Notes: generated from the letters alone by a model not told the origin. Shown: positions 4,122 to 61,400, counted from the stretch's first letter. The stretch: 64,000 nucleotides of DNA from Candidatus Omnitrophota bacterium (GCA_028715965.1 JAQUQS010000004.1:61963-125962), one strand, 5' to 3'. Program-made: numbers and translations.

Positions 4122-4162
4122 TAATATAGATACTAAAACTGGTTCTTTTAAATGGATTTTTT

Positions 4163-4297
4163 GAAAAAGGCAACCTCCGTGAAAGCGGAAGGGCGCAAAG
4201 CTATAAGAGCCTAAGACCTCAAGGGGTTACGGTAGTCAGCTGCCAAAGAGAGAAGGTATACATTGACCCATGGCTATTATAGTCATGGGTTTTTTTA
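4163..4297 (+). ncRNA. candidate c-di-GMP-I (GEMM) riboswitch aptamer (4163-4244) plus intrinsic terminator (hairpin 4267-4289, U-tract 4290-4296) in the tpsA-1 5' UTR
   Basis: AAAAAGGCAACC..UGAAAG..GGGCGCAAAGCU..GCCUAAG..GGGGUUACGGUAG..CAGCUGCC aligns block by block with the GEMM consensus and the Vc2 riboswitch (GGCAAACC / GNRA loop / GGGACGCAAAGCC / GCCUAA / GGGGUUACCGA / GCUnCC). Followed by a 10-bp hairpin CCCAUGGCUA-UUA-UAGUCAUGGG and U7. Confidence 0.5.
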
Positions 4298-12778: not shown

Positions 12779-12819
12779 TAAATTGATACTAAAACCGGTT
12801 CTTTTAAATGGATTTTTTG

Positions 12820-12953
12820 AAAAAGGCAACCTCCGTGAAAGCGGAAGGGCGCAAAGCTATAAGAGCCTAAGACCTCAAGGGGTTACGGTAGTCAGCTGCC
12901 AAAGAGAGAAGGTATACATTGACCCATGGCTATTATAGTCATGGGTTTTTTTA
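12820..12953 (+). ncRNA. second copy of the candidate c-di-GMP-I (GEMM) riboswitch plus intrinsic terminator, in the tpsA-2 5' UTR
   Basis: Nucleotide-identical to 4163-4297 (aptamer about 12820-12900; hairpin 12924-12946; U-tract 12947-12953). Confidence 0.5.
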
Positions 12954-16000: not shown

Positions 16001-19000
16001 TATCTTTACGCGGACGCGGAGAACAACGGTTCAGGGGGCTTTATGCAATCGGGGTCGGCTTCTATAACTTCAGGAGGGACCGCCCAGATCGCGCTACGCG
16101 CGGCAGGCACGGGAAGTTTATTGGGCGATATAACGGCCGGCCGGTTATATCTTTACGCGCAGTCAGGTGGCGCCACATATGCGCTCCAGGACGGGTGTAA
16201 TGTGGACCTGAATTATTACACTTCTTCCTATGGTCTTTATGTCGCCAGTAATGCTATATTTAACGGTGGAAATAATACGACCATATCTACGGGAGGAGAC
16301 TGGTGGGTGGACGGCACGTTCAATGGGCAGGGATCTACGGCCATATTGGATGGTACGTATTCCGGCACGAAGGATATACGGATGGACGCGGGCTCATTCA
16401 ATAACCTTACGATAAACGCGAGCGGGACATATTCCCCATATACTTCCACCACGCCTACGGTAGTTGCGGGCGGTGACCTCAGCATCACTGCGGGCATATT
16501 GAGCATGACCACGAACGATCTCGTGGTAGGCGGAGACCTTCTTATCGACGGAGGCGTACTTATCGCCAATGGCGCGGGTGTGGACATTGATGTCGATGGG
16601 GATGTCTTGATCCGCGCGGGGGACTTTTTCGCCCCGACGGGCCTGGACGATGTTTCGTTCACGGTAGGGGGCGGATTTGAAGTATCGGGTGCGGGTGATT
16701 ATTATAACGGCAATGGAAGGGTCGTATTCGATTCATCCGATATAGGGAACGATATCATCCTTACAACCTCCGGGTCCTATTTTTTCAATGACGTAAAGTT
16801 CAGCGGCGGAGGTGAATGGACTCTCACCGGCCTTATGCTGGCCTCCGGTGATCTGTATATGTATGACGGGACGCTCGTCGCCGGAGGACTGATAATAGCC
16901 GCGGATACATTAGCAATGGATGGCGGGAATATCACAAGTGATGGAAATGATGTCGAGATCATCGCTTCGACTTTTACGCAGACAGCGGGGGCGATAACGA
17001 CAACATCAGAAGGGGATGTGAAGATCAGTTCTACCGCTATGCCCGGGGCATTTACTGTCGGGGAGATAAATTCCGATGGTGGTGTTTTCATCGGAGAGAC
17101 CAACGCTCCGGTCACGGTCAGCCAGACATCAGGGACATCAATAACAGCGGTGGGAGATAGAGGCATAGAGATCAGCGCGTCAGGCGATATTACACTGCGG
17201 CAGGTCAATTCCGGAAGTTACGACACGACGATCACGTCAACGGCGGGGTCCATCCTCGACGGGCTTACGGGAGAAAGCGCGAACATAACGGCGGCAGCGG
17301 CTACACTCACGGCGGCTACGGGTATAGGTGTAACTGGAAGCGAGGACCTTGACCTTGACGTGGCGACGCTTGACGCGTCCGTAACGGGTACGGGTGACAT
17401 TTATATATGGGAGGACAGCGCGATAACATTAAGTGATGTTGATACCAGCGCGGGCAAGATAGATATATCATCAGGGGGAACAATGACCGCGACGGATGTC
17501 GTGGCTGGCGATACGGGAGAAGTGTGGCTGACAACGACGAGCGGGAACATACAGGCTGGCGTGATCACGGCTTCCGGGAGCAAGGTAGTTCTCGCAGCCG
17601 CGGGTGCGATAACGGACACGAACGGTGCGAGCGTTAATATAACCGGGAGCACGGTGGACCTTGATGCCGCGACAGGCATAAGTGTGGATACTTCGGTGAA
17701 TAATATCACGGCGGACGTGTCCGGGGTCGGGAATGTCGACATAAGCGAGACAGATGATGTGAACATTAACGGTGTCTCCTCATATGAGGGGGATATCATA
17801 TTGACAAGCGGCGGCGTTATGACCGTTGCCGATGACATATCCGCCACAGGCTTCGGGAATATATCCATGACCGCCGACGGGATGAACCAGACCGGTGGCA
17901 GTATATACGCGCCCGCGGGCGAGATATGGATCGATGGCGCGGGTGATATTGTCCTGGGGGCCATAGAGGCGGCTGGGAATCTGACCATCGGGTCCAATGT
18001 GGCGCCGGATTCCGTGACCTTTAACGAAGATATCCACGCGTATAATAGCATAGACGTTATATCCAACGGGAACATTGACCAGAACGCGGACATATACAGT
18101 GACGGATCGTATGATATCTATCTGCGTCCCGACTATGACGGGGACGGTGCTGGGCAGTATTCGGGCAACGGGCATTCGCTTCTGGTGAACGCGCTTTATA
18201 TCGACCAATCGACCGATATGGTGCTTAACGGGTTTACTCTCCAGAATGGTTATGTGTTAGCCGGCACCCTTAGTGCGCCATCATCAATTACCGTGAACGG
18301 CGATATAAATGGATATTACGCGTTTTACGCGGAAAGTAACGGGAATATCGACGTGAACGCGAATATATACACGCAATATGACCTGTATCTCGACGCGGCC
18401 GGTGATATAAACATAAATTCACTTTTGAGTTCAGGGGACGTGATATCTATAGGGGGATCCATATCGCCATCCTCTGTGACAATAACATCCGCTGGTTCCA
18501 TATATTCGGGGAATACCGTTACAATATCATCCGGCGGTGATCTGGTTTTCGATAACCTGTCAGGGGCGATAGACTCGTATTTCCTGACCGGTAACGCCGG
18601 AAGCGACATAACGGTGGCGAACACCCTCAATATCGGTGTCGGATTATCCCTTGACGCCACGGGCAATATAGATGCCGAGGGCTCGATCGGTGGTATGTCT
18701 GAGACGCTTACCCTTAACGCGGGCGGGTATATTGATATAGCGGGGACCGCTACAGGGATAACCGCTGTAACGATAGACGCTTCGGGTGATGTGACCCTGG
18801 GGGGCATTGACTGCCAGGGAGACCTCGCGATAGGCGGGACGACTTCCCCGGCGAATGTTCACCTTAACGGTAGTAGCACGGTTACGGGTACTAACACGGC
18901 CCAGATCAGTTCGGCCGGGAATGTTGCCTTCAATGGCGATCTTGTCACGATATGTGGTATCACGGTCAGCGCGGTGAATAATGTTACGATAGCTAATAGT

Positions 19001-37913: not shown

Positions 37914-38591
37914 ATGCAGGAGGATAGATTGAAAAAGGTCAATATCGGACAAGATCTGATGAATGACGACCCGTGGCGCGTGTTTCGCATCATGAGCGAA
38001 TTCGTCGACGGGTTCGAGACGTTGAAGAGCATAGACAAAGCTGTAAGTATATTCGGTTCAGCGAGGACCATGCCGGACAGCCCATACTATCAACTTGCGG
38101 AAGATACGGCCAGGGAGGCGGTAAAGAAAGGGTACGCGGTCATTACCGGCGGCGGTGGAGGGATAATGGAGGCCGGGAACAAGGGGGCTAAGTCCTCTAA
38201 GGGTCTTTCTGTGGGGCTTAATATCACGTTGCCCAGCGAGCAGAAGGCGAATAAGTTCATAACATTGCCGCTGGAATTCCGTTATTTTTTCGTGCGGAAA
38301 TTGATGTTCGCCAAATATACACGGGCTTTTATCGTATTTCCCGGCGGTTTCGGTACACTTGATGAGTTCTTCGAAGTGGTCACGTTGATACAGACGAAGA
38401 AGATAGATCCTATACCGGTAGTATTGGCGGGGAGTGACCACTGGAAAGGTTTGATGAAGTGGGTCAAAGATGTGCTTCTCCCGGGTGACATGATCGAGGC
38501 GGGAGATATGGACATATACAAGCTGATAGATCAGCCAAAAGAAATTATTGAATATGTTGATGAATTCTATGAAAGAAGGGGAGGGCTTTGA
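37914..38591 (+). CDS. LOG-family (TIGR00730) nucleotide-binding protein / cytokinin riboside 5'-monophosphate phosphoribohydrolase-like
   Basis: ..VSIFGSARTMPD..YAVITGGGGGIMEAGNKGA.. and ..IVFPGGFGTLDEFFEV.. match LOG motifs. Start chosen after the purQ stop. Confidence 0.75.
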   Translation: MQEDRLKKVNIGQDLMNDDPWRVFRIMSEFVDGFETLKSIDKAVSIFGSARTMPDSPYYQLAEDTAREAVKKGYAVITGGGGGIMEAGNKGAKSSKGLSVGLNITLPSEQKANKFITLPLEFRYFFVRKLMFAKYTRAFIVFPGGFGTLDEFFEVVTLIQTKKIDPIPVVLAGSDHWKGLMKWVKDVLLPGDMIEAGDMDIYKLIDQPKEIIEYVDEFYERRGGL

Positions 38592-38592
38592 T

Positions 38593-38979
38593 ATGCAGGC
38601 CGATTTTGAGGAAAAACGTGATTTTTTCAGGGTCGATCATGACGCACCTCTTAATTTCAAGGTGGTGAAGGGCGATAGCTTTTCTCATAAATCCGATATT
38701 TACGCCCGGAACGTGAGCGCGAGCGGATTGTTGTTCCGTACGGAAAAGGAATCTTCCGTGCCGGCGTTGTCCAGTATCGTGTGGATAGAGCTGGATCCCA
38801 AGATCATGAACATATGCCATGAGATAGAGGACGATCTGGTCACCCACAATAACGGCGTATTCGGCCGTGTCGTGCGGATCGCTGAAGGGGAACCCAATAA
38901 ATCGTATGATATCGGCATATGTTTCCTGCGGAAGAAGGACATATCGGAGCAGGACATGGCGATACTTTGTGAAACATAA
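38593..38979 (+). CDS. PilZ domain protein (c-di-GMP receptor candidate)
   Basis: AGGGGAGG RBS then ATG. RxxxR (KRDFFR) and D/NxSxGG (NVSASGLLF) PilZ signatures at canonical spacing. Confidence 0.6.
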   Translation: MQADFEEKRDFFRVDHDAPLNFKVVKGDSFSHKSDIYARNVSASGLLFRTEKESSVPALSSIVWIELDPKIMNICHEIEDDLVTHNNGVFGRVVRIAEGEPNKSYDIGICFLRKKDISEQDMAILCET

Positions 38980-38989
38980 AAGCGGGTGA

Positions 38990-39199
38990 ATGATGGAAAC
39001 ACTCAAGAGTTTTCTTATAGGGCTTATCGTCCTGTTTTTCGCGGCGGTGATATTTGTCGTCGTGTTCCTTACCTGGCCGATCTTGATAGGTATAAGTTCG
39101 CTGATACTGTCGGTATTCGCCGCGGTCTTATTCCTGGTGCTTTTGTTCTACATAGTCGTTCTTATCGGCCATCTTGTCAGGCGTATCACAAGGAAATGA
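38990..39199 (+). CDS. hypothetical small membrane protein (two TM helices)
   Basis: Strongly hydrophobic 69-aa ORF (..FLIGLIVLFFAAVIFVVVFL..) with a basic C-terminus. Occupies a different frame from the overlapping 165-aa track ORF. Confidence 0.35.
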   Translation: MMETLKSFLIGLIVLFFAAVIFVVVFLTWPILIGISSLILSVFAAVLFLVLLFYIVVLIGHLVRRITRK

Positions 39200-39204
39200 C
39201 CATA

Positions 39205-39483
39205 ATGAGCTATACTGAAGCATTAAGGGACGGGGAGCTTCGTTTTGAGGCGGTGTGTGCCAATTGCGGCGAATGCTGTGGCGCGTCCGATGACCCCTGC
39301 ACCAATCTCACGCGAACCGTGAACGGGAAATATACATGCCGGGCATATCTGGACCGATTGGGTCCGCAAAAGACCGTTTCCGGCAAAGTGTTCACGTGTG
39401 TTCCAATACGCGAACACATCCGGACGGATACTTTAAGGCCTAATTGCGCCTATCGAGCCTACGTTAAGTCAATAAATAGTTGA
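39205..39483 (+). CDS. YkgJ/UPF0153-family Cys-cluster protein (CxxCxxCC metal-binding motif)
   Basis: ..AVCANCGECCGASDDPC.. is the CxxCxxCC signature of the putative Zn/Fe-chelating domain family. Internal ATG of the 165-aa track ORF, placed just after the membrane-protein stop. Confidence 0.5.
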   Translation: MSYTEALRDGELRFEAVCANCGECCGASDDPCTNLTRTVNGKYTCRAYLDRLGPQKTVSGKVFTCVPIREHIRTDTLRPNCAYRAYVKSINS

Positions 39484-39541
39484 ATTTTCCAAAAAACGTA
39501 ATATAATGATGGTGCGGTCGGTGCATTCGTAAGGAGGCGAT

Positions 39542-41119
39542 TTGTCGGCACATAACCCGTACATCCTTAATATACTCACGCCTGAAGTGATAGACAGGAC
39601 ATCACTTCTTGTGATAGGATTCGACGTGGATGGAAGGTTGCTGTACTGGAACGAAAGAGCCAGGGAAGTGACCGGTCATTCCAAGGCCGATATCCTGAAG
39701 GCGGGTATGCCATTGTTGTTCCGCTGCCTGATACCTTCGGGGAGCTTGAAGAGTATCAAGCCCACTGCCGAATCCCAGAGCATCCAACTTAAAGAAAAAG
39801 AGATCTCTATTCGCAATAGGTCGGGGGAGATACGTCATCTGCGCCTGGATCTTTATCTTGTTCGCTCCACGAGGGCTAAAGGGCGTGTGGCTGTGATACT
39901 AACTGCCGTTGATATTACCTATGCTTATCTTTTACAGAACAGCCTGAGGTCCAAGAACCACTATATACAGACCACTACGAACCGTCTTAAACGTTATCTT
40001 TCCCTGGACCCGCATACCGGGCTTTTGAATTACAGACATTTTATACATAAGTTGAGCCATTTGTTCTATGTGGGGTTCGAGAACAACGAACCGCTTTCGT
40101 TGCTGATGATAAACATAGACTACTTCAGTTCCATAAACAGTACATATGGGGTCGCGCGAGGGAACCAGATACTCAAAAAAATAGCCGAGCTTATAAAGGC
40201 GAACGTCCCGGCCGGGTTTTCCGTAGGGCGTTTTGGAGGCACGGAATTCGGAGTTCTTATGCCGGCAACCGACATAAAGAGCGCGTTCGCCATAGCGGGC
40301 AAGCTTTTCACCAAGATGACGGACCTTAATTTCAGCGACAAAAAACATGATGTTACGTTGAACTTGTCCTTGAACATGGCTATCGGGGGGCATCCTCACT
40401 GTGCTGGTGCCGGAAGCCCGGAACAGTTGTTGGGGATCGTTATGGATAAGCTCAATGACGCTAAACGGACCGGAGCTAACTCAATATTGATATGCTCACC
40501 GAACCGGGCGGTGGAACATAAAACGGATGCGATGGAGGAGTTCCAGTCCGACAATGGCGATTATAAGTATACGTTGGAATTCGTCCATGCCCTGGCGAAT
40601 ACCGTAAAGACCAAGGATCTGTATACACAGGAACATTCCATGTCCATGTCCGGCTATGCGGCATCTATCGCGGATTTCATGGGGTTGAACCAGGCAGAAA
40701 TACAGAGGATACGTTTTGGTTCGATACTTCACGATATCGGCAAGATAGGCATAGATCGCATGATATTGCTCAAACCCACAGCGCTTACCCGGGGGGAATT
40801 CGAGACGATAAAACAGCACCCCAGGATTGGCGCGGAAATAATCAGGAACGTCCGTCCGTTAAAGAACGTCGTACCCTATGTTCTGTATCATCATGAGAGG
40901 TATAATGGCAGCGGTTACCTGGAAGGATTGAGGGGCGATGAAATACCTCTTGGTGCCAGGATAATAAGCCTTGCGGATGTGTTCCAGGCTTTAATATCAA
41001 ACCGTCCGTATAGGAAGCCATTGCCGGAAGAAGAGGCGATAGGGCTTATTAAGACGTATTCCGGAAAATATTTCGATCCTAAGGTCGTGAAAGCCTTTCT
41101 TGAGGTCCACCGCGCCTGA
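39542..41119 (+). CDS. PAS - degenerate GGDEF (GGTEF) - HD-GYP c-di-GMP phosphodiesterase-type signalling protein
   Basis: TTG start. N-terminal PAS-like segment (..LLVIGFDVDGRLLYWNERAREVTGH..). GGDEF fold with A-site RFGGTEFGVL (Thr replaces D/E). C-terminal HD-GYP (..HDIGKIG..YHHERYNGSGYLEGL..). Confidence 0.75.
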   Translation: MSAHNPYILNILTPEVIDRTSLLVIGFDVDGRLLYWNERAREVTGHSKADILKAGMPLLFRCLIPSGSLKSIKPTAESQSIQLKEKEISIRNRSGEIRHLRLDLYLVRSTRAKGRVAVILTAVDITYAYLLQNSLRSKNHYIQTTTNRLKRYLSLDPHTGLLNYRHFIHKLSHLFYVGFENNEPLSLLMINIDYFSSINSTYGVARGNQILKKIAELIKANVPAGFSVGRFGGTEFGVLMPATDIKSAFAIAGKLFTKMTDLNFSDKKHDVTLNLSLNMAIGGHPHCAGAGSPEQLLGIVMDKLNDAKRTGANSILICSPNRAVEHKTDAMEEFQSDNGDYKYTLEFVHALANTVKTKDLYTQEHSMSMSGYAASIADFMGLNQAEIQRIRFGSILHDIGKIGIDRMILLKPTALTRGEFETIKQHPRIGAEIIRNVRPLKNVVPYVLYHHERYNGSGYLEGLRGDEIPLGARIISLADVFQALISNRPYRKPLPEEEAIGLIKTYSGKYFDPKVVKAFLEVHRA

Positions 41120-41188
41120 AAAAACTTGACCCCCGGCTATCGAACACATAGAATAAACCCTTCTGGAAAATAAAGAAAGGCAGAAAAT

Positions 41189-42469
41189 ATGTCAAAAAAC
41201 ACCATAACGATGACAGACAAGGATGTGCTGGAATATCACAAGGGCGGTAAGGTGGCGCTGGCGATCACAAAGCCGCTAGCCGGCCAGCGTGATCTCAGCA
41301 TGGCTTATACCCCGGGAGTGTCTATTGCCTGCAAGGCCATAGAAGCAACTCCGGCTTTGGCTTATGACCTTACTGCCAAGAACAATACGGTGGCGGTCGT
41401 AACGGACGGTACCGCGGTGCTTGGGCTGGGGAATATCGGGCCTGTTCCTTCTATCCCGGTAATGGAAGGAAAAGCCGTACTTTTTAAATCGTTCGCTGAC
41501 GTCGACGCGTGGCCTGTGCCGGTGACCGGTGTGGCCGGGCAGGATGGGAAGACCGATGTAACCCGCTTTGTCGAGATAGTAAAGAGCATAGCGTGCATGT
41601 ATGGGGGGATAAACCTTGAAGATATAGCCGCGCCACAATGTTTCGAGATAGAAAGGGAGCTTGAAGAGGCGCTTGACATACCGGTATTCCACGATGACCA
41701 GTGGGGGACCGCCATAATAACGCTTGCCGCCCTAAAGAACTATTGCATACTTACGGGTAAGGATGTATCGGACCTAAGGGTGGTAATAAACGGCGCCGGT
41801 GCGGCGGGGCTTCGTATCGCCGACATGATAAAGACTGACGGGGTTAAGCACTGCCTGATCTGTGACCGCAAGGGGGTATTGACGTCATCCAGGGATGATA
41901 TAAACAAACATAAGAAGGTACACGCGGTTGATACCGGTAAGACCTCTCTTGAGGATGCCATGAAGGGCGCGGATGTGTTCATTGGCGTGTCCGCGGCCGA
42001 TTGTGTTACCGGCGGGATGGTGAGTTCAATGTCGGAATATCCCGCGATATTCGCCATGGCCAATCCCGTTCCGGAAATACTTCCCGAAAAGGTAAAAGAA
42101 AGCATGAAGGGCAGGGAGTATATAATGGCGACAGGAAGATCGGATTATCCCAACCAGGTCAACAATGTGTTGGGGTTCCCGTTCATTTTCCGTGGCGCTC
42201 TTGATGTCCGGGCCAGTCGCATAACTATGAACATGAAGATCGCCGCCGCTGAAGCGCTTGCGGCATTGGCGCGCGAAAAAGACATTCCCCAGGCTGTCAA
42301 AAAGGCCTATGGAAGGGAATTTACTTTTGGACCGGATTATTTGATACCAACCCCGTTCGATCCGCGTATAATGGCGTGGGAATCCAGGGCAGTCGCGGAA
42401 GCCGCTATAAATGATGGAGTTGCGCGAATAAAAAAGGCCCCCGAATACGCGCTGTGCTCCGTCAGTTAA
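41189..42469 (+). CDS. NAD(P)-dependent malic enzyme, short form (no PTA domain)
   Basis: ..LSMAYTPGVSIACKAIEATP.. and ..VINGAGAAGLRIADMI.. (Rossmann) match the 400-430-aa bacterial malic enzyme family. Confidence 0.85.
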   Translation: MSKNTITMTDKDVLEYHKGGKVALAITKPLAGQRDLSMAYTPGVSIACKAIEATPALAYDLTAKNNTVAVVTDGTAVLGLGNIGPVPSIPVMEGKAVLFKSFADVDAWPVPVTGVAGQDGKTDVTRFVEIVKSIACMYGGINLEDIAAPQCFEIERELEEALDIPVFHDDQWGTAIITLAALKNYCILTGKDVSDLRVVINGAGAAGLRIADMIKTDGVKHCLICDRKGVLTSSRDDINKHKKVHAVDTGKTSLEDAMKGADVFIGVSAADCVTGGMVSSMSEYPAIFAMANPVPEILPEKVKESMKGREYIMATGRSDYPNQVNNVLGFPFIFRGALDVRASRITMNMKIAAAEALAALAREKDIPQAVKKAYGREFTFGPDYLIPTPFDPRIMAWESRAVAEAAINDGVARIKKAPEYALCSVS

Positions 42470-42560
42470 AGGGACGTAAAAACTTCAAGGTGACTAAATA
42501 CGTCTCCTTTGACTTGCTCTCAAAGATAGGCTATACTATTAGTAATAAGAAGGGTGTAGC

Positions 42561-43568
42561 ATGAATCCGCATACGATCACAGACATAAAGGTCCTTGTTG
42601 TCGAGGATGACCCCACGAGTGCTAAACTTTTGCAGAGTATGCTGAGTAAATCCGTCCTTGGAATAGCCGAGATAGTAGTAACTACCACTTTGAAGGAATC
42701 CATAGAATATATCTCACGTAATATCGACACGGATATCGTCCTTTTGGACCTTAACCTGCCGGACAGTACGGGACTCGATTCAGTAAGTGACCTTAATGAC
42801 GAACACCCCGATGTGGCGATCGTTGTCATCACGGGTGCTTATGCCGAGTCCCTGGGGCTTGACGCTATTTCGAACGGGGCACAGGATTACCTGATCAAGG
42901 GTAAATATGATATGGGCATGCTCAACAAATCCATTCTTTACGCGATCGAGCGTAAGAAGGGCGAGAACGAACGCAAAAAAAGTCTGGAAGAACTGCAGCG
43001 CGTGATGGAAGGGACCATATTGGCAATGGCCACTACCGTGGAAATGAGGGACCCATATACCGCCGGCCATGAGCAGAGGGTAAGCCAGTTGGCCACGGCG
43101 ATAGCGGGAGATCTCGGGTTGTCGGAGAAACAGGTGAACGGCATAAAAATGGCGGCTATCATACATGATATAGGCAAGATACATATACCGGCTGAGATAC
43201 TGAGTAAACCGGGAAAAATAAGCAAGATAGAGTTCGACCTGATAAAGACACATGCTCAGGTCGGGTATGATATCCTCAAGAACATCGATTTCCCTTGGCC
43301 GATCGCGCAGATAGTACTGCAGCATCACGAGAGGATAGACGGATCGGGATATCCCAATGGGTTGAAAGGGGATGATATACTCCTGGAGTCGCGGATAATG
43401 GCGGTCGCCGATGTGGTCGAAGCCATGGCGTCCCATCGTCCTTACCGACCGGCCTGTGGTCTGGATAAGGCTCTTGAAGAGATATCTAATTCCAGGGGTA
43501 TTCTTTACGACCCGAACGCGGTAGACGCGTGCATACGTCTTTTCAGGGAGAGGGGATTTTCCTTCTGA
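42561..43568 (+). CDS. response regulator with HD-GYP output domain (RpfG-like c-di-GMP phosphodiesterase)
   Basis: REC domain (..VLVVEDDP..VLLDLNLPDSTG..) followed by HD-GYP (..IHDIGKIHIP..QHHERIDGSGYPNGL..). Confidence 0.85.
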   Translation: MNPHTITDIKVLVVEDDPTSAKLLQSMLSKSVLGIAEIVVTTTLKESIEYISRNIDTDIVLLDLNLPDSTGLDSVSDLNDEHPDVAIVVITGAYAESLGLDAISNGAQDYLIKGKYDMGMLNKSILYAIERKKGENERKKSLEELQRVMEGTILAMATTVEMRDPYTAGHEQRVSQLATAIAGDLGLSEKQVNGIKMAAIIHDIGKIHIPAEILSKPGKISKIEFDLIKTHAQVGYDILKNIDFPWPIAQIVLQHHERIDGSGYPNGLKGDDILLESRIMAVADVVEAMASHRPYRPACGLDKALEEISNSRGILYDPNAVDACIRLFRERGFSF

Positions 43569-49197: not shown

Positions 49198-50532
49198 ATG
49201 AATATAAGCATACGTACCAAGCTATTCGCTACCACAATATCCATATTGGTGCTGGCCGTAACGTCGACAGCTGCTATCAATATCACTAAGTTCCGGTCAA
49301 TGTACATCGAGGCTATGCTGGAAAGGGCCAGGGCCGACGCCCAGGACATACGTTCCGCCATTCTCCATGGGCTGAACTATTTCCCGTTGGACTCGTTCTC
49401 CGATATGAGATATCTCCTTAGGTCGCGGCTTAGTCCGAAGTTCAGCTATTGTTATGTGGCTAACGCCGACAGGAAGATACTGTACCATAGCGAAGGTGAT
49501 GTCGACGACGATAAGCTACCCGACATATTTACCGCGAAACTGGAGCTTTTAGGGGAGAATAACAGTATAATCGTCTCTGTTGAGGGATACTATGAGAGCG
49601 TGATCCCGATAGTGTTCAAGGAGGAAAGGGTAGGGACGATACATGTTGGCATAGAGAAGAACCTGGTGGATGGGGCGGTTATCCGCATGATAGCCCAGAC
49701 CGTGACCATACTTATTATCGCGCTCCTGGCCTCCATATTCGTGCTCTATTACCTGCTCACCAAGAACATTACAGAGCCCATACGGATGCTCCTGAAAAAG
49801 GTCACCTACATAAACTCACGATTTGATATCACCAAGCGCATAAAAGAACAGAAAGGGGACGAGCTCGCGGCGTTCGCGCGGTCTTTTGACCTCATGTCCG
49901 AGGAACTGCAGATAATATTCGAGGGTAGCATAAACGCCTTGGCCACCGCCGTTGAAAGCAGGGACCCTTACACGGCTGGTCATCAACGAAGGGTGGCAGA
50001 TCTGGCGCGTACCATCGCGAAAGAGATGGGCCTGCCGGAGAAAAAGCAGAACGAGATATATATGTCAGGCATAAGCCATGATATCGGTAAGGTCGGCGTG
50101 CCGACACGAATACTAACGAAACGGGGTAAGTTGACAGAAGAGGAGATAGAGCTCATACGCTCGCATCCACAGGTCGGATACGATATTCTCAAGGCGATCG
50201 ATTTTGACTGGCCCATCGCCAGGACGGTGCTTCAACACCACGAGCATATGGATGGTACGGGGTATCCCAACGGAGCCAATGGTGACAATATACTGTTGGA
50301 GGCCAGGATAATAACGGTCGCGGACGTGGTGGAGGCCATGGCAGCCCCGCGTCCCTACAGGGAAGGCCTGGGTATTGAAGCCGCGCTGGACGAGATATTG
50401 TTGAAGAGGGATACATGGTTCGACCCAAAGGTCGTTGACACGTGTCTCAAACTGTTCTATGAGCAGAAATATACGTTTGATTTTACCAATCTTAATATCA
50501 CGATGATAGACCCGAACCAGCTCTCCCGATAA
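49198..50532 (+). CDS. membrane-anchored sensor: periplasmic domain - TM - HAMP - HD-GYP phosphodiesterase
   Basis: TM1 at the N-terminus, a 150-aa extracytoplasmic segment, TM2 (..IAQTVTILIIALLASIFVLYYLL..), HAMP-like helices, then HD-GYP (..SHDIGKVG..QHHEHMDGTGYPNG..). Confidence 0.8.
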   Translation: MNISIRTKLFATTISILVLAVTSTAAINITKFRSMYIEAMLERARADAQDIRSAILHGLNYFPLDSFSDMRYLLRSRLSPKFSYCYVANADRKILYHSEGDVDDDKLPDIFTAKLELLGENNSIIVSVEGYYESVIPIVFKEERVGTIHVGIEKNLVDGAVIRMIAQTVTILIIALLASIFVLYYLLTKNITEPIRMLLKKVTYINSRFDITKRIKEQKGDELAAFARSFDLMSEELQIIFEGSINALATAVESRDPYTAGHQRRVADLARTIAKEMGLPEKKQNEIYMSGISHDIGKVGVPTRILTKRGKLTEEEIELIRSHPQVGYDILKAIDFDWPIARTVLQHHEHMDGTGYPNGANGDNILLEARIITVADVVEAMAAPRPYREGLGIEAALDEILLKRDTWFDPKVVDTCLKLFYEQKYTFDFTNLNITMIDPNQLSR

Positions 50533-53861: not shown

Positions 53862-54945
53862 ACATTATCGGACGTTGCAAATGGAGGGCCTCTGGGGTGT
53901 TTTTAAGGGGTTTTTGAGCGACGTTCGATAATGTGATCTGGCGCCTCTTTGCGGGACAACGTCCAATAATGCCGGAACATTATCCGACGATACCCTGCTT
54001 CGCATATCATCCGATAATATTCCCCTAAGCGCGTCTATTTTTGGTATCAGTACCGCGCTTATCGGACGTTGCAAATGGAGGGCCTCTGGGGTGTTTTTAA
54101 GGGGTTTTTGAGCGACGTTCGATAATGTGATCTGGCGCCTCTTTGCGGGACAACGTCCAATAATGCCGGAACATTATCCGACGATACCCTGCTTCGCATA
54201 TCATCCGATAATATTCCCCTAAGCGCGTCTATTTTTGGTATCAGTACCGCGCTTATCGGACGTTGCAAATGAGGGCTTTCTAAGGGTGTTTGCCTGGGTT
54301 TTGTCCCGAGTTTTTCACGTCGGATAATGTATGAATACTTCGAGACAATTCCCAACATCCAATAATGTGGGAATATTATCCGACGATACCCTGCTTCGCA
54401 TATCATCCGATAATATTCCCCTAAGCGCGTCTATTTTTGGTATCAGTACCGCGCTTATCGGACGTTGTAAATGAGGGCTTTCTAGGGGTGTTTGCCTGGG
54501 TTTTGTCCCGAGTTTCTCACGTCGGATAATGTATGAATACTTTGAGACAATTCCCAACATCCAATAATGCCGGAACATTATCCGACGATACCCTGCTTCG
54601 CGGATCATCCGATAATATTCCCCTAAGCGCGTCTATTTTTGGTATCAGTACCGCGCTTATCGGACGTTGCAAATGGAGGGCCTCTGGGGTGTTTTTAAGG
54701 GGTTTTTGAGCGACGTTCGATAATGTGATCTGGCGCCTCTTTGCGGGACAACGTCCAATAATGCCGGAACATTATCCGACGATACCCTGCTTCGCATATC
54801 ATCCGATAATATTCTCCTAAGCGCGTCTATTTTTGGTATCAGTACCGCGCTTATCGGACGTTGCAAATGGAGGGCCTCTGGGGTGTTTTTAAGGGGTTTT
54901 TGGGCGACGTTCGATAATGTGATCTGGCGCCTCTTCGCGGGACAA
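53862..54945. repeat. noncoding tandem array of 5.5 units of 194-202 bp (order A-A-B-B-A-A'), each dense in ATAATG/CATTAT-type inverted motifs
   Basis: Unit starts (TTATCGGACGTTG) at 53865, 54059, 54253, 54455, 54657 and 54851. Units share 17 bp at the left and about 95 bp at the right, with two alternative central segments. Minus-strand ORFs here are repeat artefacts. Confidence 0.85.
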
Positions 54946-55117
54946 CTCCCTTAACCGCCTTTTCTTTACTTACATTGCTTTTTGAAGGTTGATTTGAAAT
55001 AACTTAAATATGATCGCATGTACTTGGCAATTTATTGTAAATTCGTATACTTTTTATAGTACGTTATTTTATGTTGACTGATATATGTTCAGGTTTTCAG
55101 ATAAAAGGAGTTGTCAT

Positions 55118-55472: not shown

Positions 55473-58400
55473 TTAGAACGCTGTATCGGCTTTAAGGTCA
55501 GCGAATAAAGCGTTGTCGATATCCTCGTCGGTCGTGTCCTGCCCCTGCCCGCCGGCATCAAGTTTTAATGTTATTGCGCCTTTCTTTGTCATTTCCCGCA
55601 GACGTTTCAAACCTTCATCGGTGAACGCCGCCTGGAACCCCCTGTATGTTATCGCGAGTGCCAGTACCTTGCCGAAAATATGGCCCTTTTCCGCCAGTAC
55701 GAAATTGTCGCTTATTTTGGCGATCTCCGTGATGAGTGCCGTGGCGGAATCGAAATCTTCGCGCAACGCGACGCCGGTGATCACGATCTTTTTGGCGCCA
55801 AGGGACCTGGCGAGTGTTTCCGCCTCGTAAAGTATGGTCGTAAGGTCCTCTATGGTGGAAACCTCTTTTACCATCTGGTACGAGCCGTTATCCTTCAGGC
55901 GTTTCATGCCTTTCTCGTCACTTTTCGCTGCCGTCTCGGTAGCTATACATATGTTTACGGTATCCGGGGACTTAAGTTTGTTCCAGCCTCCGGCGTTAGC
56001 GTTCACCGCTGCGTTTGCCTGGGTTCCGTAATCCATTATTTGCGGGGCCGTGGTAATAACCGTTCCATCTCCTGCCATCTCGCCGCCATTGCCCGTGATA
56101 TCAACGGCGTTGAATGTGGCCGGGGCCATTAACCCGCCCTGTTCTCCGGAAATGCGTCCGTTCCGTGACATGATGATCCGTGTAGCCAGTGTGGCTGTTA
56201 GCGGAAGCTCGCTCGCGGCCGGGTTTCTTAATCCTTCCGCGGTGAGGTCTCTCAGATATTTGAGCTGGTCGGCACTGGACCGTTCCGCGATACCGCGTAC
56301 AGCCCGGGCCATTGATTCCATATCAGTTGCTGAATCATCCTCATCCGGCGTTTCTTCTAGGAGCATATCACCGGCCGCGGCATCTATGATCTCGGCCGCG
56401 GTATAGGCCTCTGCCAGCGCGCTTTCGGTCATATTCCCGTTCGCGTCACATTTACTGAAGATCGCGACAAGCATGTCGACAGCTTTATCCCGTTCGCCGT
56501 TCTCCAGTGCCTTCCGCAGTTCGGGTAATATCCCGCCGATAGTTGCACTTGGATCCAGGCTCTTGGCCTTATGTGTATCCGGAGCCAGGCCGGGGGTCGA
56601 ACTGTCCCGGGTCATGCCGTCATCCGTGGTGCCCTGCTCTTCCGGAACGGAAGATGGCGTATCCGCTGAGGTTATGTCTTCTACTCCTGCCAGCCTGAAG
56701 GCATATTTGCCCTCCCCTACCCTGCTGCCGGCGATGTTGATACGGGCGATGGTGAGCCTTTTTCCCATTACCGTTACGATGATCTCATTTGTCTTTGTGC
56801 CAAAGCCCGGTATCTGGCGGTCGATATCGGCAGTAAGCGCTTTTACGACTTTATTTTCAAATACGCAGAATATGTTGAACGCGCCGGTCGCCTGGTCGAG
56901 TTTTTCCACCACGAATATCAGGTTCCCGTCCGCGTCATGGTCGGCGTAGTACCGGGTGACACGCGCGATCCTGCCGTCTGAGCCCATTTCATGTATCCAT
57001 GAGGTGCCGGTGCTTGTTATGTCTATTCCGCGATATGCCGCTTCAGCTATTTTTACGGCTATATCCGCGATATGTGATGCCTTATATCCGTCGATGCCCG
57101 CTTCAGCGTATGGTTCGGAGTGGCCGTCAAAAATGACATTATCCAGGTCATCTACGGTCACTATATCAGATGCTCCGAAATCGACCATTGAGCCCCTGAA
57201 ACTGATGGTGGCGGATGTGGATATCCTTATGGCCTCAGTCCCGCTTGCCATGAAAGCATAGCGCACTTCATACGGCAATACTCCCCCGAAATTACTGGAT
57301 GCGACATCTCGCAGGAATGTATATTCCTCTGGATCGATCGTGCCGATATTGGTAAGTTCCGCCAGGACATCCATAAGATCCGCACTTTTTATCATGACGC
57401 TTTGAGTCTGGCTGGAATGGTCTATGCGTATCCGGTATACTGCCGCATCATTGACGTTATCGACGCGATCTATTGAATATAAGTGCCCGCCGTTCTCTCT
57501 CAGGTCGATCTCTATGCTCTGCCCAATGGAGACCTGTCCTTTAAGGCCCATTTCGATGCGGGTGTTCAGTTCTCCCATGTTCCAATCGTTCCCGGTACCG
57601 TCCGGTCTTTCCATTTTCAGTGAGGATATGCGGTTTTCCGTGATCTCCGCCCGGAACCGGTCCATATTGCCGTAGGCATCATAGATGCTCGCGTTCACCG
57701 TTGCGGTCCTCAGTGCCGGAATACCTCGGGCTATGGCAGCTACGCGGGAAATGAACGTTTCAAGGTCTCCCGCGGTGGATCCCAGGACCATATCTTCCAC
57801 GAGCCGCGCGGCCCCGCCCGGGATAAGTTCCCGGTTCCCGGTCGTGTTCAGGACAAGTGTCATGGAGCGTTCGTTGAAGTTGTCGGTCAAGGTAAGGGAT
57901 ATCTTACCGTAAGCTAGTTCGCTGAGATCTGCTTCTATGGCTACACCGTCTATGTCGAACTGCATGGTACCTGAAGTCAGTCCATTCTCGGTCATGGCGC
58001 GGTTTATCGCGGGAAGTACGTCGTTAAGTACGCCCAGCCCCTGCTCTCCCGTGATGGAGACGCCTTCGATCAGTGCGTTAAGTGTGTTCTGGTCAAAGGT
58101 CTTGCCGGCCGCTATCTTAACGGAGACATCCGCCCCCGAAGATGTGGAACGTATGTTCGCCTGGCCGGTCACGAGGTCCAGGCTTATATCGGTCCCGTCT
58201 ATCCGCATGCTGATATAAGTGAGGGACGACAGGCTGTTGAACCCCAGCTCATTGGTTCCTATCCCTGCGGTGGTTTTCCCGGAGGCCGCTTTTTGTGAAA
58301 GCCCGTTCGCGGCATCCCCGAAGTGCATCGCGTTGTTCTCCTGCGCGTTATCAAGGTAGTCGTCTATGGTCACCGTATCCGCATTCTCATCTATATAGCC

Positions 58401-61400
58401 TTCCGCGGGTACGTTCATTTTTATAGCTCTTTCCGTGAGCGGGTTGGATATCGTTACTGCGGATCCTCCTTCGCCCAGGTCGAGTTCCAGTATCCGGTCG
58501 TCAGAGACGGTCGATCTGACAGATCTTGTATTTATGTTATCGCTTATCGCCGTTGAACGCAATTGACGTACCATGCCGTTGAACGCATTGACGGTGGTAA
58601 CCACTCCTTTCTCTGTAGTGAGGTCCAGGTCGAGGCCTGTCGTGCCGGCTGTTTTAGCGATAGCCTGGACCGCGGAGATGATCGCCGGGATATTGCTGCC
58701 CGTGCCGGCTGTCATCTGTAAACTTGGACCGTGGGCCTCAAGTGAGATGCTGCCGGAAACAAGTGAAGCATATACTCCGGGAGCGGAGATGATGCTGTTA
58801 AATGCCTGCCCGAACAGTTTTTCGGTGCCGAGTATCTTTCCGACCGTCTTCGCGCCATCGATATCCGCTATGATGTCTTCGTTGGCCAATGACCTTATGA
58901 ACTCGGCCGCGTCTTCGGTCGCCAGGGCTGTTTCCTGTTTTGTATGGTCGGTCCGCCCGGAGGCTTCATGTGCGACCTCATGCGAGATGACCATGTCGCG
59001 TAGTATGCCCTCTATTCTTTGCGCGCCGGTGGTGTCTATGCCCAGTCCTTCCGCGATCCTTCCCGCAAGGTGTTTTATGGCCTGTGTGTTGAGCGCTATT
59101 ATGCCGTCTTTTTCATTGTTACCGCCGAGATCCGTCCCCAGTCCTTCCGAGCGGGAGGTCGACACCACAGTCAGGCCTTTTCTCAGTCCGTCACCATTGG
59201 TCCGCCGCATTGAGGCGTTAGCGACCGAGTTGGCTATTTCCTGCCGTGTTGCCGTGCTGCCGAAGTGGCTATCAACATACACTGGCGCGGAGGAACCGTC
59301 CTCTTGTCGGCCGGTCTCGGGTTGCACAGCCCAACGGGACCCGCCGGTATCAGTGGTCTCACCACGGATATCCGCTGCCCTGGACATCATCGCCGAGGTG
59401 TGTCGCGGAGCCCTTGCTTCAGATACCCCTCTGCCGGTGGTGTGCTGGAAACTTAGGGATTCTCCGCTTTCCAGAATTATCTCTCTGGGTGCGCTCGAGG
59501 TCCCGGAGGCCGCCCCGACAAGGTCATCCAGGTCAATATCGTTTATCTGGTCTACCAGGTCCTTAACGTGTTTGTCCAAAGTATCTATGCCCTCATCCCC
59601 GGGAAGGAGTGTTCGCAGGCTGTCAACCTTGGCGCTTACATCGGCCGGCGCCCCGGTTTCCGTGACGAGCGGGGTGTCAGAGGTCTTTCTCCCGAGTATC
59701 ATCTGGGCTTCCCGCATACGTCCCGTTTGTCCTGTACCGTTGAACGCATCGATGACGCTGTTGGCCTGCATGGCGTCGATATTCGAATTCAGGTTCTCCA
59801 TATGTGAACGGAAAAGCCCTGCCGCGGGATTCTCGAAATCCATTGAGGTCCCAAATCCGCCGTTATCGCGGATGGCCTTCGTCATTTCCGCGCGTTCTGC
59901 ATTCCGTATCCGCATGTCCGAAACGTCCACATAATGGTGTATGTTCCCTTCTCCCCTGCCGGGCGCGTTTATCCTCTGTTCCTGTTGTTTCATCGCGCTG
60001 GAGGAGCCTATTTCGGTGGTAAAGAACTCTACGCCCTGGAAACCTCCGGTGTTCCCGAATTCTATAAAGTCCTGTGCCTTGCCATTGATCCATTTTTTGG
60101 AGAATGTATTGGCGCCAGTGCCGAGTTTTGATACAAGGTGGATAGAGTTACCGAACATTTCCCTGACCTGACCCTGTTCTGCCGGGCTGGCCATGCGTAC
60201 CGCGTCCCTTACTGCCTCAAAGGAGTTAGGGTTCTCATATACCAGTATGTTGACCGTTCTGCCGGCGTTGGATGTGGTATATTTTGTCACGCCCTTAATA
60301 GGAACGGTTCTGCCGTTCACTTTTAGGGTAACCGTCTCGCCTTTCAGTTCCGCCTCAGGGGCCTTTCCCATGAGGCCCTTAAGGGCCGCTTCCGCACTGG
60401 CCATGGTGCCGAACGCGCCCACTATAAGGCGTATTCCGCCGTTCTTGGCATTTTCCGCCTGTGACCCCATTACAGCTTTACTGAAGGCACCGATGAGCTC
60501 AGCGGAACCCTCAAAGAACATTGTTTTCGCTGAAGTGTGCCAATCGCTCTGGCCCAGGTCTATGATACTTGCACCCATCGCGTTAAGGGCTATACGGCAG
60601 CCCTCGATCGTGCCTGTGAAACCTGTCATTATGTCCTGTCCGGTCGCTGAGTGCCGGTTGATATAGGCGATCGCCTCACTTATGCTTACCCCTCTCTGTG
60701 ATGAGGTAATAAGGGCGTTTATGGCGTTGGAGGCCTCGATCCCGGCTACGTTCTTCTCGTTATACCGGCCGCCGCTTGTTGCTCTCATCTTGGCGCTCTC
60801 GACCTGGCCTCTGTGGTGTATGGCCAAGGCCTTCCAGGGGTCGCCATACTGGGTATTGACCATATCCTCGCCTGTCATCCTGTCATGCATAGTATATGAG
60901 CTCATCGTGCCGGTCCAGAGGTCCAGGTTCACGGAGAACCCGCCTTTCTGCTGTAACTTACAGGTTAGAGGATCGGCCGCACGGTTTACATAGGTATTAA
61001 AGAGCATGCGTGCGTTGTTGACGCCTCCCAGGGAGGCAAGTTCGGCCTGAGAGAGTGAAGATAGCATGCTTTCCACTACGGCCTTCGCGGCTTCGTATGT
61101 GAGATGGCGGTTGTTCGTGGTAGCGTCGAAATCAAAGTATTTTTGCCATCCTTTGGCGCCGCCGTTCCATCGGGAAAGTATAGCGTCCCTGCCGGCGAGC
61201 GCGCCTTTGTTCAGCGCTTCATAGAACCGTTTTTCCCCGCCTTTTGCCTGCGCGAACATGTTGCGTGCTACGTTAAATGTAAGGTTCGTGGTCTGCATGA
61301 CCGCTTCCACTTCGTCGATGCTGAACTGGTGGAACCCTTCGAGTTTTTCCGGGGAATTGAAATAAATTTCCAGCAGGGTCTTTGATGCCATTATATTTAC

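What the first reader, a model, noticed from the sequence alone, without database searches (positions are those of the whole stretch)
38593..43568. Cluster of c-di-GMP effector and degradation genes, with no intact diguanylate cyclase in the window
Within 5 kb lie a PilZ protein, a 2-TM miniprotein, a CxxCxxCC metal-binding protein, a PAS-GGDEF(GGTEF)-HD-GYP protein and a REC-HD-GYP regulator. A third HD-GYP protein (HAMP sensor, 49198-50532) follows 6 kb later.

Together with the GEMM-like leaders on both tpsA genes, this makes the window strongly biased towards c-di-GMP hydrolysis and sensing. The only GGDEF fold has a degenerate active site (RFGGTEFGVL). It is therefore more likely an allosteric or GTP-sensing module that regulates the fused HD-GYP domain than a cyclase.
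Basis: partly seen in the sequence, partly recalled or inferred. Interest (0 to 1): 0.5.

Follow-up and report, generated by a model that had tools for sequence, protein, structure and literature searches.

The report
Conserved PilZ cassette with dedicated phosphodiesterase
In an uncultured Omnitrophota bacterium, a c-di-GMP receptor gene always travels with two tiny partner genes and often with a c-di-GMP-degrading enzyme whose synthase half is dead, while the two other degrading enzymes nearby are local additions.

Summary
The window is a Candidatus Omnitrophota MAG. It carries a PilZ gene, a 2-TM miniprotein, an 8-Cys protein, a PAS-GGDEF(GGTEF)-HD-GYP protein, a REC-HD-GYP protein and a Cache/HAMP-HD-GYP protein. 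Two c-di-GMP-I riboswitches are real, and no intact GGDEF or EAL domain was found.

The cluster is not one unit. PilZ-miniprotein-8-Cys is an ordered trio in 35 distinct Omnitrophota loci, always after purL-purQ(-LOG), and about as conserved as PurQ. The PAS-GGDEF-HD-GYL orthogroup was found only directly after that trio (13 of 13 places) and is absent from about 60% of trio loci. The other two HD-GYP genes are paralogues with no counterpart in related loci.

In 31 orthologue clusters, no readable GGDEF A-site has D/E at position 3 (0/28) and none has RxxD (0/28). GYL occurs in 28 of 31. Other GGDEF-HD-GYP hybrids are mostly canonical. "Not a cyclase" is strongly supported. GTP or I-site sensing is not.

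Most likely this is a local module: a PAS-controlled phosphodiesterase sets the c-di-GMP seen by the PilZ trio. The trio's output is unknown.

The parts
37929..38591 (+). LOG/TIGR00730-family gene. It is the last gene before PilZ, with one base between its stop and the PilZ ATG. Context only, and optional in relatives.
   Evidence: Pfam Lysine_decarbox 104.8 bits and TIGR00730 142 bits. The start follows the public gene call. Present upstream of PilZ in 22 related loci and absent in others.
38593..38979 (+). Single-domain PilZ protein (128 aa), the predicted c-di-GMP receptor.
38990..39199 (+). 69-aa membrane hairpin: two TM helices, a TWP turn and a basic C-terminus.
   Evidence: Hydropathy and a 36-sequence alignment. 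It follows PilZ in 33 of 35 distinct loci.
39196..39483 (+). 95-aa protein with eight invariant Cys (CxxCGxCC...C...C...C...C), a probable metal or Fe-S binding protein. Not annotated in the source assembly.
   Evidence: ATGA overlap with the miniprotein stop. Invariant residues are C21, C24, C27, C28, C35, C48, C68 and C84. AF2 pLDDT is 84.8. No Pfam, PDB-sequence or PDB-fold match. The family has 128 representatives among 1.84 billion proteins. No gene is called here in GCA_028710465.1.
39542..41119 (+). PAS / degenerate GGDEF / HD-GYL protein (525 aa). PAS spans about 39608-39928, GGDEF about 40001-40486 and HD-GYP about 40595-41086. It is a predicted c-di-GMP phosphodiesterase, not a cyclase.
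   Evidence: Domain hits. PleD alignment. PmGH alignment. Orthologue alignment. Motif census. It lies directly after the trio in 13 of 13 places.
40235..40249 (+). Degenerate A-site GGTEF.
   Evidence: Orthologues carry SGSEF, SGTEF, GGAEF, SGGEI, SGKEF and similar.
40907..40921 (+). GSGYL, a variant of the GYP motif.
   Evidence: GYL occurs in 28 of 31 orthologue clusters.
41189..42469 (+). It is syntenic with the trio across the phylum.
   Evidence: Pfam malic and Malic_M, and NF009501 at 421 bits. It follows the trio or the PAS-GGDEF-HD-GYL gene in 27 loci.
42561..43568 (+). REC-HD-GYP response-regulator phosphodiesterase (335 aa), specific to this lineage.
   Evidence: Response_reg 64.7 bits and HD_5 137 bits. 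GYP and the metal ligands are present. No counterpart appears after malic enzyme in related loci.
49198..50532 (+). Membrane sCache_3_2/HAMP-HD-GYP sensor phosphodiesterase (444 aa). Its catalytic domain is a paralogue of the REC-HD-GYP domain.
   Evidence: HD_5 147.5 bits, sCache_3_2 28.0 bits against a 28.4 cut-off, and HAMP-region matches. It is 59% identical to the REC-HD-GYP catalytic domain over 193 aa.
4159..4247 (+). c-di-GMP-I riboswitch aptamer before tpsA-like ORF 4360-12675 (context).
   Evidence: Rfam RF01051 at 65.6 bits. TPS domain in the ORF. A hairpin followed by U7 lies at about 4265-4298.
12815..12903 (+). Second, identical c-di-GMP-I riboswitch aptamer before tpsA-like ORF 13016-21109 (context).
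   Evidence: Rfam RF01051 at 65.6 bits. TPS domain in the ORF.

Best explanation
The interval holds two layers.

Layer 1 is an old, phylum-wide Omnitrophota cassette. A single-domain PilZ c-di-GMP receptor, a 2-TM hairpin miniprotein and an 8-Cys (probably metal-binding) protein are tightly spaced or overlapping. They sit at the 3' end of the purL-purQ(-LOG) gene string.

In this genome, and in roughly 40% of related loci, the cassette is followed at once by its own enzyme. This is a PAS-sensor protein whose GGDEF domain has lost catalysis and the I-site. Its HD-GYP domain (Y-type, predicted binuclear, GYL variant) keeps every catalytic and metal residue.

The likely working is as follows. The PAS domain senses a signal. 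The dead GGDEF domain acts as a structural, dimerising or docking module. The HD-GYL domain lowers c-di-GMP locally, and the PilZ protein reads that level. PilZ then passes it to the membrane hairpin and the Cys protein, probably as a membrane-associated complex. The output is unknown.

Layer 2 is specific to this lineage. A REC-HD-GYP and a Cache/HAMP-HD-GYP, paralogues of each other, feed other inputs (phosphorelay, periplasmic ligand) into c-di-GMP degradation. The malic enzyme between them is a syntenic housekeeping gene.

Shown here: domain content, motif states, gene order and its conservation. Inferred: c-di-GMP binding, phosphodiesterase activity, complex formation and local signalling.
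For: Source and phylum:
- The window is GCA_028710465.1. Every PilZ homologue that carries an organism name is Omnitrophota.

The trio:
- It occurs in the same order in 35 distinct PilZ loci. The miniprotein follows PilZ in 33 of 35, and the Cys gene follows wherever sequence is available downstream, apart from L116.
- Spacing here is a 1-nt gap, a 10-nt gap and a 4-nt overlap.
- Median identity to the window is PilZ 60%, miniprotein 53% and Cys 55%, against PurQ 62.5% and LOG 62%.
- The PilZ binding motifs are invariant and the fold hits are PilZ domains.

The PAS-GGDEF-HD-GYL gene:
- Its orthologues lie directly after the trio in 9 loci found through PilZ. The same holds for 4 of 4 independent assemblies found through the enzyme itself.
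- Loci with the gene are scattered across the trio tree.
- The GGDEF domain is degenerate: D327N, E370T, D344N, R446A and no RxxD. Orthologue A-sites with D/E are 0 of 28 and RxxD is 0 of 28. Other hybrids show about 69 of 79 canonical A-sites and 69 of 79 RxxD (same contrast).
- The HD-GYP ligands H189, H221, D222, H250, H276, H277 and D305, plus D183 and K225, are kept. This domain is the best-conserved part of the protein at 69%.
- In PmGH, the P286A substitution does not substantially reduce activity (PMC4159591).

Precedent:
- An HD-GYP::GGDEF::PilZ complex in Xanthomonas is cited in PMC4159591.

Layer 2:
- The REC-HD-GYP and the third HD-GYP are 59% identical in the catalytic domain.
- They are absent from about 0.29 Mb of syntenic related loci.
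Against: - No binding, activity or interaction has been measured.
- The whole neighbourhood (guaA-purL-purQ ... malic enzyme) is syntenic. Conserved adjacency therefore carries less weight than it would in a shuffled genome.
- The enzyme is missing from about 60% of trio loci, so the trio works without it.
- One locus (L116) has PilZ without its partners, and one (L095) has a gene inserted between the miniprotein and the Cys gene.
- Promoter-like sites before the enzyme, malic enzyme and REC-HD-GYP genes suggest separate transcription. Their number is not above chance: 12 found against 8.9 +/- 2.5 in shuffles.
- The best solved relative of the HD-GYL domain is a cGAMP-specific enzyme, 5z7c.
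Confidence: 0.6

Rival explanations
1. The adjacency carries no functional meaning. The PilZ trio, the hybrid enzyme, malic enzyme and the other HD-GYP genes are simply neighbours in a long, co-directional and slowly rearranging housekeeping gene string. Each acts in the global c-di-GMP pool.
For: - From carA (23214) to the REC-HD-GYP gene (43568) all genes are on the + strand with short gaps.
- purL, purQ and malic enzyme are as syntenic as the trio.
- The enzyme was lost in about 15 of 24 loci where the slot can be read.
- Promoter-like sites lie before the enzyme, malic enzyme and REC-HD-GYP genes.
Against: - The enzyme's orthogroup was found only in this slot, 13 of 13 places, including 4 of 4 retrieved independently of PilZ.
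- Both gene products belong to the same signalling pathway.
- The trio is translationally coupled.
Confidence: 0.2
2. The degenerate GGDEF domain binds GTP, or c-di-GMP at an I-site, and allosterically switches the fused HD-GYP domain, as in Caulobacter PdeA (CC3396).
For: - The GGDEF fold is retained at 84 bits.
- N335, R366, E371 and K442 equivalents are conserved in orthologues.
- A precedent exists for GGDEF-EAL proteins (my own knowledge of PdeA; not tested here).
Against: - Both Mg2+ ligands are lost (D327N, E370T), as are guanine contact D344 (N here) and phosphate contact R446 (A here, not conserved in orthologues).
- RxxD is absent in 28 of 28 orthologue clusters.
- The A-site residue varies freely (T, S, A, G, K, N), as expected under no constraint.
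Confidence: 0.12
3. The HD-GYP enzymes here act on another cyclic dinucleotide, such as 3'3'-cGAMP, or mainly on pGpG, rather than on c-di-GMP.
For: - The best solved-structure match of the HD-GYL domain is the cGAMP-specific V-cGAP3 (5z7c, E 1e-34), ahead of PmGH.
- All three domains belong to the Y-type subfamily, which lacks the E185 ligand (PMC4159591).
Against: - The window holds c-di-GMP-specific readers: a PilZ with canonical motifs and two RF01051 riboswitches.
- NCBIfam's nearest model is a c-di-GMP phosphodiesterase family.
- No cGAMP synthase was seen in the window.
Confidence: 0.08

Closest known systems
Xanthomonas campestris RpfG (HD-GYP) :: GGDEF proteins :: PilZ protein complex (Ryan et al. 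2010, 2012, as cited in PMC4159591)
   Same: The same three domain types act together. The GGDEF partner acts through protein contact rather than synthesis, and the GYP loop is the contact site. A small PilZ protein is the downstream adaptor.
   Different: Here the GGDEF and HD-GYP domains are fused in one chain. The GGDEF domain is catalytically dead and the GYP proline is replaced (GYL). The PilZ gene is adjacent and comes with a membrane hairpin and an 8-Cys protein. No interaction has been shown.
GGDEF-HD-GYP hybrid proteins in general (Seshasayee et al. 2010, PMC2952852)
   Same: The PAS + GGDEF + HD-GYP architecture. 32 of the 74 hybrids in that census also carried PAS.
   Different: That census found all but two hybrids with an intact A-site. 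It concluded that a degenerate GGDEF is not needed to control HD-GYP. This orthogroup is uniformly degenerate (0 of 28 with D/E) and lacks RxxD. The other hybrids scored here are mostly canonical.
Degenerate-GGDEF + EAL phosphodiesterases (PdeA/CC3396, FimX)
   Same: An inactive GGDEF domain is kept next to an active c-di-GMP hydrolase domain.
   Different: The hydrolase is HD-GYP, not EAL. The GTP-binding residues that PdeA keeps are largely missing here.
PmGH and other solved HD-GYP enzymes (4mcw, 4r8z, 5z7c)
   Same: The HD_5 fold, seven metal ligands, D183 and K225, and the HHExxDGxGY signature.
   Different: Tyr replaces the E185 ligand, which places the domains in the Y/F subfamily that the authors predict to be binuclear. 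One of the three domains has GYL.
YkgJ / Pfam PF03692 CxxCxxCC putative Zn/Fe-chelating domain
   Same: An N-terminal CxxCGxCC motif, small size and multiple further Cys.
   Different: The Pfam model gives no hit even at E <= 10, while E. coli YkgJ scores 44.6 bits. The profile comparison aligns only 10 columns with 12% probability.
Small pilZ genes downstream of Omnitrophota giant genes (bioRxiv 10.1101/2023.11.21.568195)
   Same: Small PilZ proteins in the same phylum, and c-di-GMP linked to very large surface proteins.
   Different: Those lie after giant genes. The PilZ here lies after purQ/LOG, always with the hairpin and Cys partners.

Membership tests
PilZ domain c-di-GMP receptor (PF07238) | RxxxR motif | tested here: met
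   RDFFR in the window. R9 and R13 are invariant in 32 homologues.
PilZ domain c-di-GMP receptor (PF07238) | [D/N]xSxxG motif | tested here: met
   NVSASG in the window. N40, S42 and G45 are invariant.
PilZ domain c-di-GMP receptor (PF07238) | Pfam model at or above the gathering score | tested here: not met
   22.1 bits against 22.5 for the window protein. Some homologues carry a precomputed PF07238 hit.
PilZ domain c-di-GMP receptor (PF07238) | PilZ beta-barrel fold | tested here: inconclusive
PilZ domain c-di-GMP receptor (PF07238) | Binds c-di-GMP | not testable with these tools
   Needs ITC or DRaCALA.
HD-GYP c-di-GMP phosphodiesterase | HD_5/HD domain above the Pfam threshold (all three proteins) | tested here: met
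   116, 137 and 147 bits against a 27.2 cut-off.
HD-GYP c-di-GMP phosphodiesterase | Metal ligands H189, H221, D222, H250, H276, H277 and D305, plus D183 and K225 (PmGH numbering) | tested here: met
   Alignment to 4mcw. Invariant in orthologues. Present in both other proteins. Residue list from PMC4159591.
HD-GYP c-di-GMP phosphodiesterase | Eighth ligand E185 (trinuclear E/D-T-G subfamily) | tested here: not met
   Tyr sits at this position in all three proteins (DLYTQEH, DPYTAGH). They belong to the Y/F subfamily.
HD-GYP c-di-GMP phosphodiesterase | GYP motif | tested here: inconclusive
   GYP is present in the REC and Cache/HAMP proteins. The hybrid has GYL, as do 28 of 31 orthologue clusters. 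P286A keeps activity in PmGH.
Diguanylate cyclase (active GGDEF) | GGDEF fold | tested here: met
   PF00990 at 83.9 bits and TIGR00254 at 91.5 bits.
Diguanylate cyclase (active GGDEF) | GG[D/E]EF A-site and Mg2+ ligand D327 | tested here: not met
   GGTEF and D327N. 0 of 28 orthologue clusters have D/E at position 3.
Diguanylate cyclase (active GGDEF) | RxxD inhibitory site | tested here: not met
   PAGF aligns to PleD R359-D362. 0 of 28 in orthologues.
GTP-sensing degenerate GGDEF (PdeA type) | Retained GTP contacts N335, D344, K442, R446 and the Mg2+ ligands | tested here: not met
   N335 and K442 are kept. D344N, R446A, D327N and E370T are changed.
CxxCxxCC / YkgJ (PF03692) | CxxCxxCC motif | tested here: met
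   CANCGECC in the window, invariant in 18 sequences.
CxxCxxCC / YkgJ (PF03692) | Match to the family model over the domain | tested here: not met
   No hit at E <= 10 for 4 members. The YkgJ control scores 44.6 bits. hhalign gives 12% probability over 10 columns.
c-di-GMP-I riboswitch (RF01051) | Covariance-model score above the gathering threshold | tested here: met
   Two matches at 65.6 bits against 35.

The most novel reading that the evidence does not exclude
PilZ, the 2-TM hairpin and the 8-Cys protein form a previously undescribed c-di-GMP effector complex at the membrane, conserved across the phylum. It could couple the second messenger to a metal- or redox-dependent output, or to purine nucleotide supply, given its fixed place after guaA-purL-purQ-LOG. 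The degenerate-GGDEF/HD-GYL enzyme would dock onto it through its dead GGDEF domain. That would be a hard-wired version of the Xanthomonas HD-GYP::GGDEF::PilZ complex.
Probability: 0.25. Interest if true: 0.6.

Novelty: new variant of a known kind. Interest (0 to 1): 0.4.

Why it matters
Omnitrophota are uncultured, very small, possibly predatory or host-dependent bacteria. Almost nothing is known about how they regulate themselves.

A PilZ receptor that is as conserved as purine-biosynthesis enzymes, and always paired with the same two small proteins, is a good entry point to c-di-GMP output in this phylum.

The linked enzyme family runs against the published generalisation that GGDEF-HD-GYP hybrids keep an active cyclase. 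It is annotated in public records as "diguanylate cyclase", which is probably the reverse of its activity. The 8-Cys gene is often not called at all.

For the scan itself, the lesson is that the "cluster" is one conserved four-gene module plus unrelated neighbours. It is not a hydrolysis island.

Tried and rejected
- Profile searches of the PDB sequences with the PilZ and Cys alignments gave only chance hits.
- Pfam and NCBIfam gave nothing for the miniprotein or the Cys protein.
- I considered filing the Cys protein under PF03692/YkgJ and rejected it after a positive-control test. One distant hit of the Cys profile (P0210) is a Big_1 repeat protein and a false positive.
- I looked for a third riboswitch before the giant ORF on the minus strand. 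None was found in the 95 nt available.
- I checked whether the giant ORFs hide GGDEF domains, as reported for some Omnitrophota giant proteins. They do not.
- The promoter and terminator scan was not above shuffled expectation, so operon boundaries remain inferred from spacing only.
- A genome-wide GGDEF versus HD-GYP count for this MAG could not be made. Only the window and short flanks are accessible.


Full report
**What is there.** The window matches contig JAQTUB010000007.1 of MAG GCA_028710465.1. Among homologues of its PilZ protein, every one that carries an organism name is Candidatus Omnitrophota. On the + strand the region reads as follows:
- LOG-family gene, ending at 38591.
- PilZ, 38593-38979.
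- A 69-aa hydrophobic hairpin, 38990-39199.
- A 95-aa Cys-rich ORF, 39196-39483.
- A PAS-GGDEF-HD-GYP protein, 39542-41119.
- Malic enzyme, 41189-42469.
- A REC-HD-GYP protein, 42561-43568.

These are followed by csp and recN on the opposite strand. Six kb further on lies a Cache/HAMP-HD-GYP protein, 49198-50532. Spacing is very tight at the start: 1 nt between LOG and PilZ, 10 nt to the hairpin gene, and an ATGA overlap into the Cys ORF.

Rfam confirms two identical c-di-GMP-I riboswitches, 65.6 bits against a gathering score of 35. They precede two TPS-domain giant ORFs, with a ShlB-type TpsB gene nearby. Pfam scans of the other plausible genes found no further GGDEF or EAL domain. They found mainly carbamoyl-phosphate, purine, pyrimidine and TCA enzymes. 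A six-frame motif scan found no GG[DE]EF in any ORF of at least 100 aa. Two things were missed: the malic enzyme gene in the middle, and the GYL variant described below.

**The three HD-GYP domains.** All score far above the Pfam HD_5 threshold. Aligned to PmGH (4mcw), the hybrid keeps D183, H189, H221, D222, K225, H250, H276, H277 and D305. The residue list and mutational data come from Bellini et al., PMC4159591. The other two proteins show the same residues.

All three carry Tyr where PmGH has the eighth ligand, E185. This places them in the Y/F subfamily that those authors predict to be binuclear. The REC and Cache/HAMP proteins have GYP. The hybrid has GYL. In PmGH, P286A does not substantially lower activity. 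In RpfG the GYP motif is needed for contact with GGDEF proteins rather than for catalysis. The REC and Cache/HAMP catalytic domains are 59% identical. The hybrid is 40% identical to the REC protein.

**The GGDEF domain.** HMMER aligns it to PleD and WspR over the whole domain. The changes are:
- D327 to N and E370 to T. These are the two Mg2+ ligands, and the second gives the GGTEF motif.
- K332 to S.
- D344 to N, a guanine contact.
- R446 to A, a phosphate contact.
- RxxD (R359-D362) replaced by PAGF.

N335, R366, E371 and K442 remain.

A search of 5.8 billion proteins gave a sharply bounded orthogroup of 31 clusters, 47-100% identical and full length. In these clusters the third A-site position is T, S, A, G, K or N and never D/E (0 of 28 readable). 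RxxD is absent (0 of 28) and GYL occurs in 28 of 31. The remaining 89 GGDEF-HD-GYP hits, scored by the same script, are mostly GGEEF or GGDEF (about 69 of 79 readable). RxxD occurs in 69 of 79 and GYP in 65. Hybrids from other phyla in the genome collection show the same contrast.

A published census found all but two of 74 GGDEF-HD-GYP hybrids with an intact A-site. It argued that a degenerate GGDEF is not needed to control HD-GYP (PMC2952852). This orthogroup is therefore an uncommon variant. "Not a cyclase" is strongly supported. NCBI names the protein "diguanylate cyclase", which is probably wrong.

The hairpin protein is conserved in 36 variants, with a fixed TWP turn and a basic tail.

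The Cys protein has eight invariant cysteines beginning with CxxCGxCC and a confident AF2 model (pLDDT 84.8). It has no match in Pfam, in PDB sequences or in PDB folds. An exhaustive profile search found only 128 representatives among 1.84 billion proteins. The distant representatives I scanned also had no Pfam match to this domain. It shares the N-terminal motif with YkgJ/PF03692 but fails that family's model, whereas E. coli YkgJ passes. The gene is not called in the source assembly, nor in three of four related assemblies I inspected.

**Conservation of gene order.** I fetched loci through PilZ homologues by exact look-ups and by a metagenome scan, and annotated them with phmmer. This gave 35 distinct PilZ loci.
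- The hairpin gene follows PilZ in 33 of them. One contig ends too early. In L116, PilZ is followed by unrelated genes.
- The Cys gene follows wherever sequence is available downstream, apart from L116. In L095 a UDP-glucose dehydrogenase gene is inserted before it.
- Upstream is always purL-purQ, with LOG in about two thirds of loci. Downstream is malic enzyme.
- Median identity to the window is PilZ 60%, hairpin 53% and Cys protein 55%. For comparison, PurQ is 62.5%, LOG 62% and malic enzyme 70%.

The hybrid enzyme occupies the slot between the Cys gene and malic enzyme in 9 of these loci. Malic enzyme follows directly in about 15. Loci with the enzyme are scattered over a tree of the trio, which fits an old presence with repeated loss.

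I also ran the reciprocal test. All four lie directly after PilZ-hairpin-Cys. The enzyme was thus found only at this slot, 13 of 13 places. Within the enzyme, the HD-GYP domain is the most conserved part (69%), the GGDEF domain less so (44%) and the PAS domain least (30%).

No locus outside the window's own species has a REC-HD-GYP after malic enzyme. No other HD-GYP gene occurs in about 0.29 Mb of related loci.

**Interpretation.** The best-supported reading is a two-layer picture. The first layer is a conserved PilZ-hairpin-Cys cassette with, in this lineage, its dedicated PAS-controlled phosphodiesterase. The dead GGDEF domain there serves as a structural or docking module. The second layer is two lineage-specific paralogous HD-GYP sensors. 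The closest precedent is the Xanthomonas HD-GYP::GGDEF::PilZ complex (cited in PMC4159591).

The output of the cassette is unknown. Its fixed position after guaA-purL-purQ-LOG and its Cys-rich partner suggest links to nucleotide supply or to metal or redox state, but nothing tests this. The main rival is that the adjacency is inherited synteny without functional meaning, because the housekeeping neighbours are equally syntenic. The 13 of 13 exclusivity of the enzyme argues against that rival but does not exclude it.

The count bias in the window (three hydrolases, one receptor, two riboswitches, no cyclase) is real. It cannot be judged against chance without the genome, and a cyclase must exist elsewhere for any of this to work.

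**Verdict.** The finding is real and correctly described. Its central inference, that the GGDEF domain is not a cyclase, is right. Its proposed mechanism, GTP or allosteric sensing, is unsupported. Its "cluster" is better split into a conserved four-gene module plus unrelated neighbours. The components are of known kinds. The trio and the uniformly degenerate GGDEF-HD-GYL orthogroup are undescribed variants. I found no paper that contains both PilZ and CxxCxxCC. The one Omnitrophota paper on small pilZ genes places them after giant genes, a different context. Interest is moderate.

Noticed in passing
window 53865-54946: Tandem array with a period of about 194 nt, 5.5 copies and 88% matches. 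It lies in the gap between aconitase and the giant minus-strand ORF. The repeated short ORFs there are probably artefacts of the repeat.
   Followed up: partly
window 4248-4360 (and the copy after 12903): A strong hairpin followed by U7 at about 4265-4298 lies between the c-di-GMP-I aptamer and the tpsA start. The leaders therefore look like transcription-termination switches. Whether the ligand turns them on or off was not resolved. The two aptamers are identical in sequence.
   Followed up: partly
window 39196-39483: The 8-Cys gene is not annotated in the public record of this MAG. It is also missed in several related assemblies, although it is conserved.
   Followed up: yes
window 39542-41119: Public annotation names this protein 'diguanylate cyclase'. 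The motif evidence says it cannot be one and is more likely a phosphodiesterase.
   Followed up: yes
window 39542-41119, residues C287 and C318: Two cysteines inside the degenerate GGDEF domain are invariant in the seven aligned orthologues (GGxPHC... and ILICSP). Their meaning is unknown.
   Followed up: no
window 55473-63905 (-): A third giant ORF (2810 aa) has no Pfam match at all. No riboswitch is visible in the 95 nt upstream before the window ends.
   Followed up: partly
L084 10077-11252: In a relative that lacks the hybrid enzyme, a REC-GGDEF-like protein lies two genes after malic enzyme. Its motif reads GGDDF, not GG[DE]EF.
   Followed up: no
L007 (CAZUYM010000025.1): This MAG is labelled 'uncultured Planctomycetia' in its record title. 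It nevertheless carries the full Omnitrophota-type block purL-purQ-PilZ-hairpin-Cys-hybrid-malic enzyme, with a 57% identical enzyme. The taxonomic label may be imprecise.
   Followed up: no
window 39480-39507, 41126-41154, 42509-42537: Sigma-70-like sites matching 10 of 12 positions fall in each of the three intergenic gaps before the hybrid enzyme, malic enzyme and REC-HD-GYP genes. The total number of such sites in the region is not above shuffled expectation.
   Followed up: no
L133 7761-9530: In one related assembly a gene annotated as 5792 aa starts about 2 kb after the hybrid enzyme, next to recN. This is another example of giant genes near this locus in Omnitrophota.
   Followed up: no
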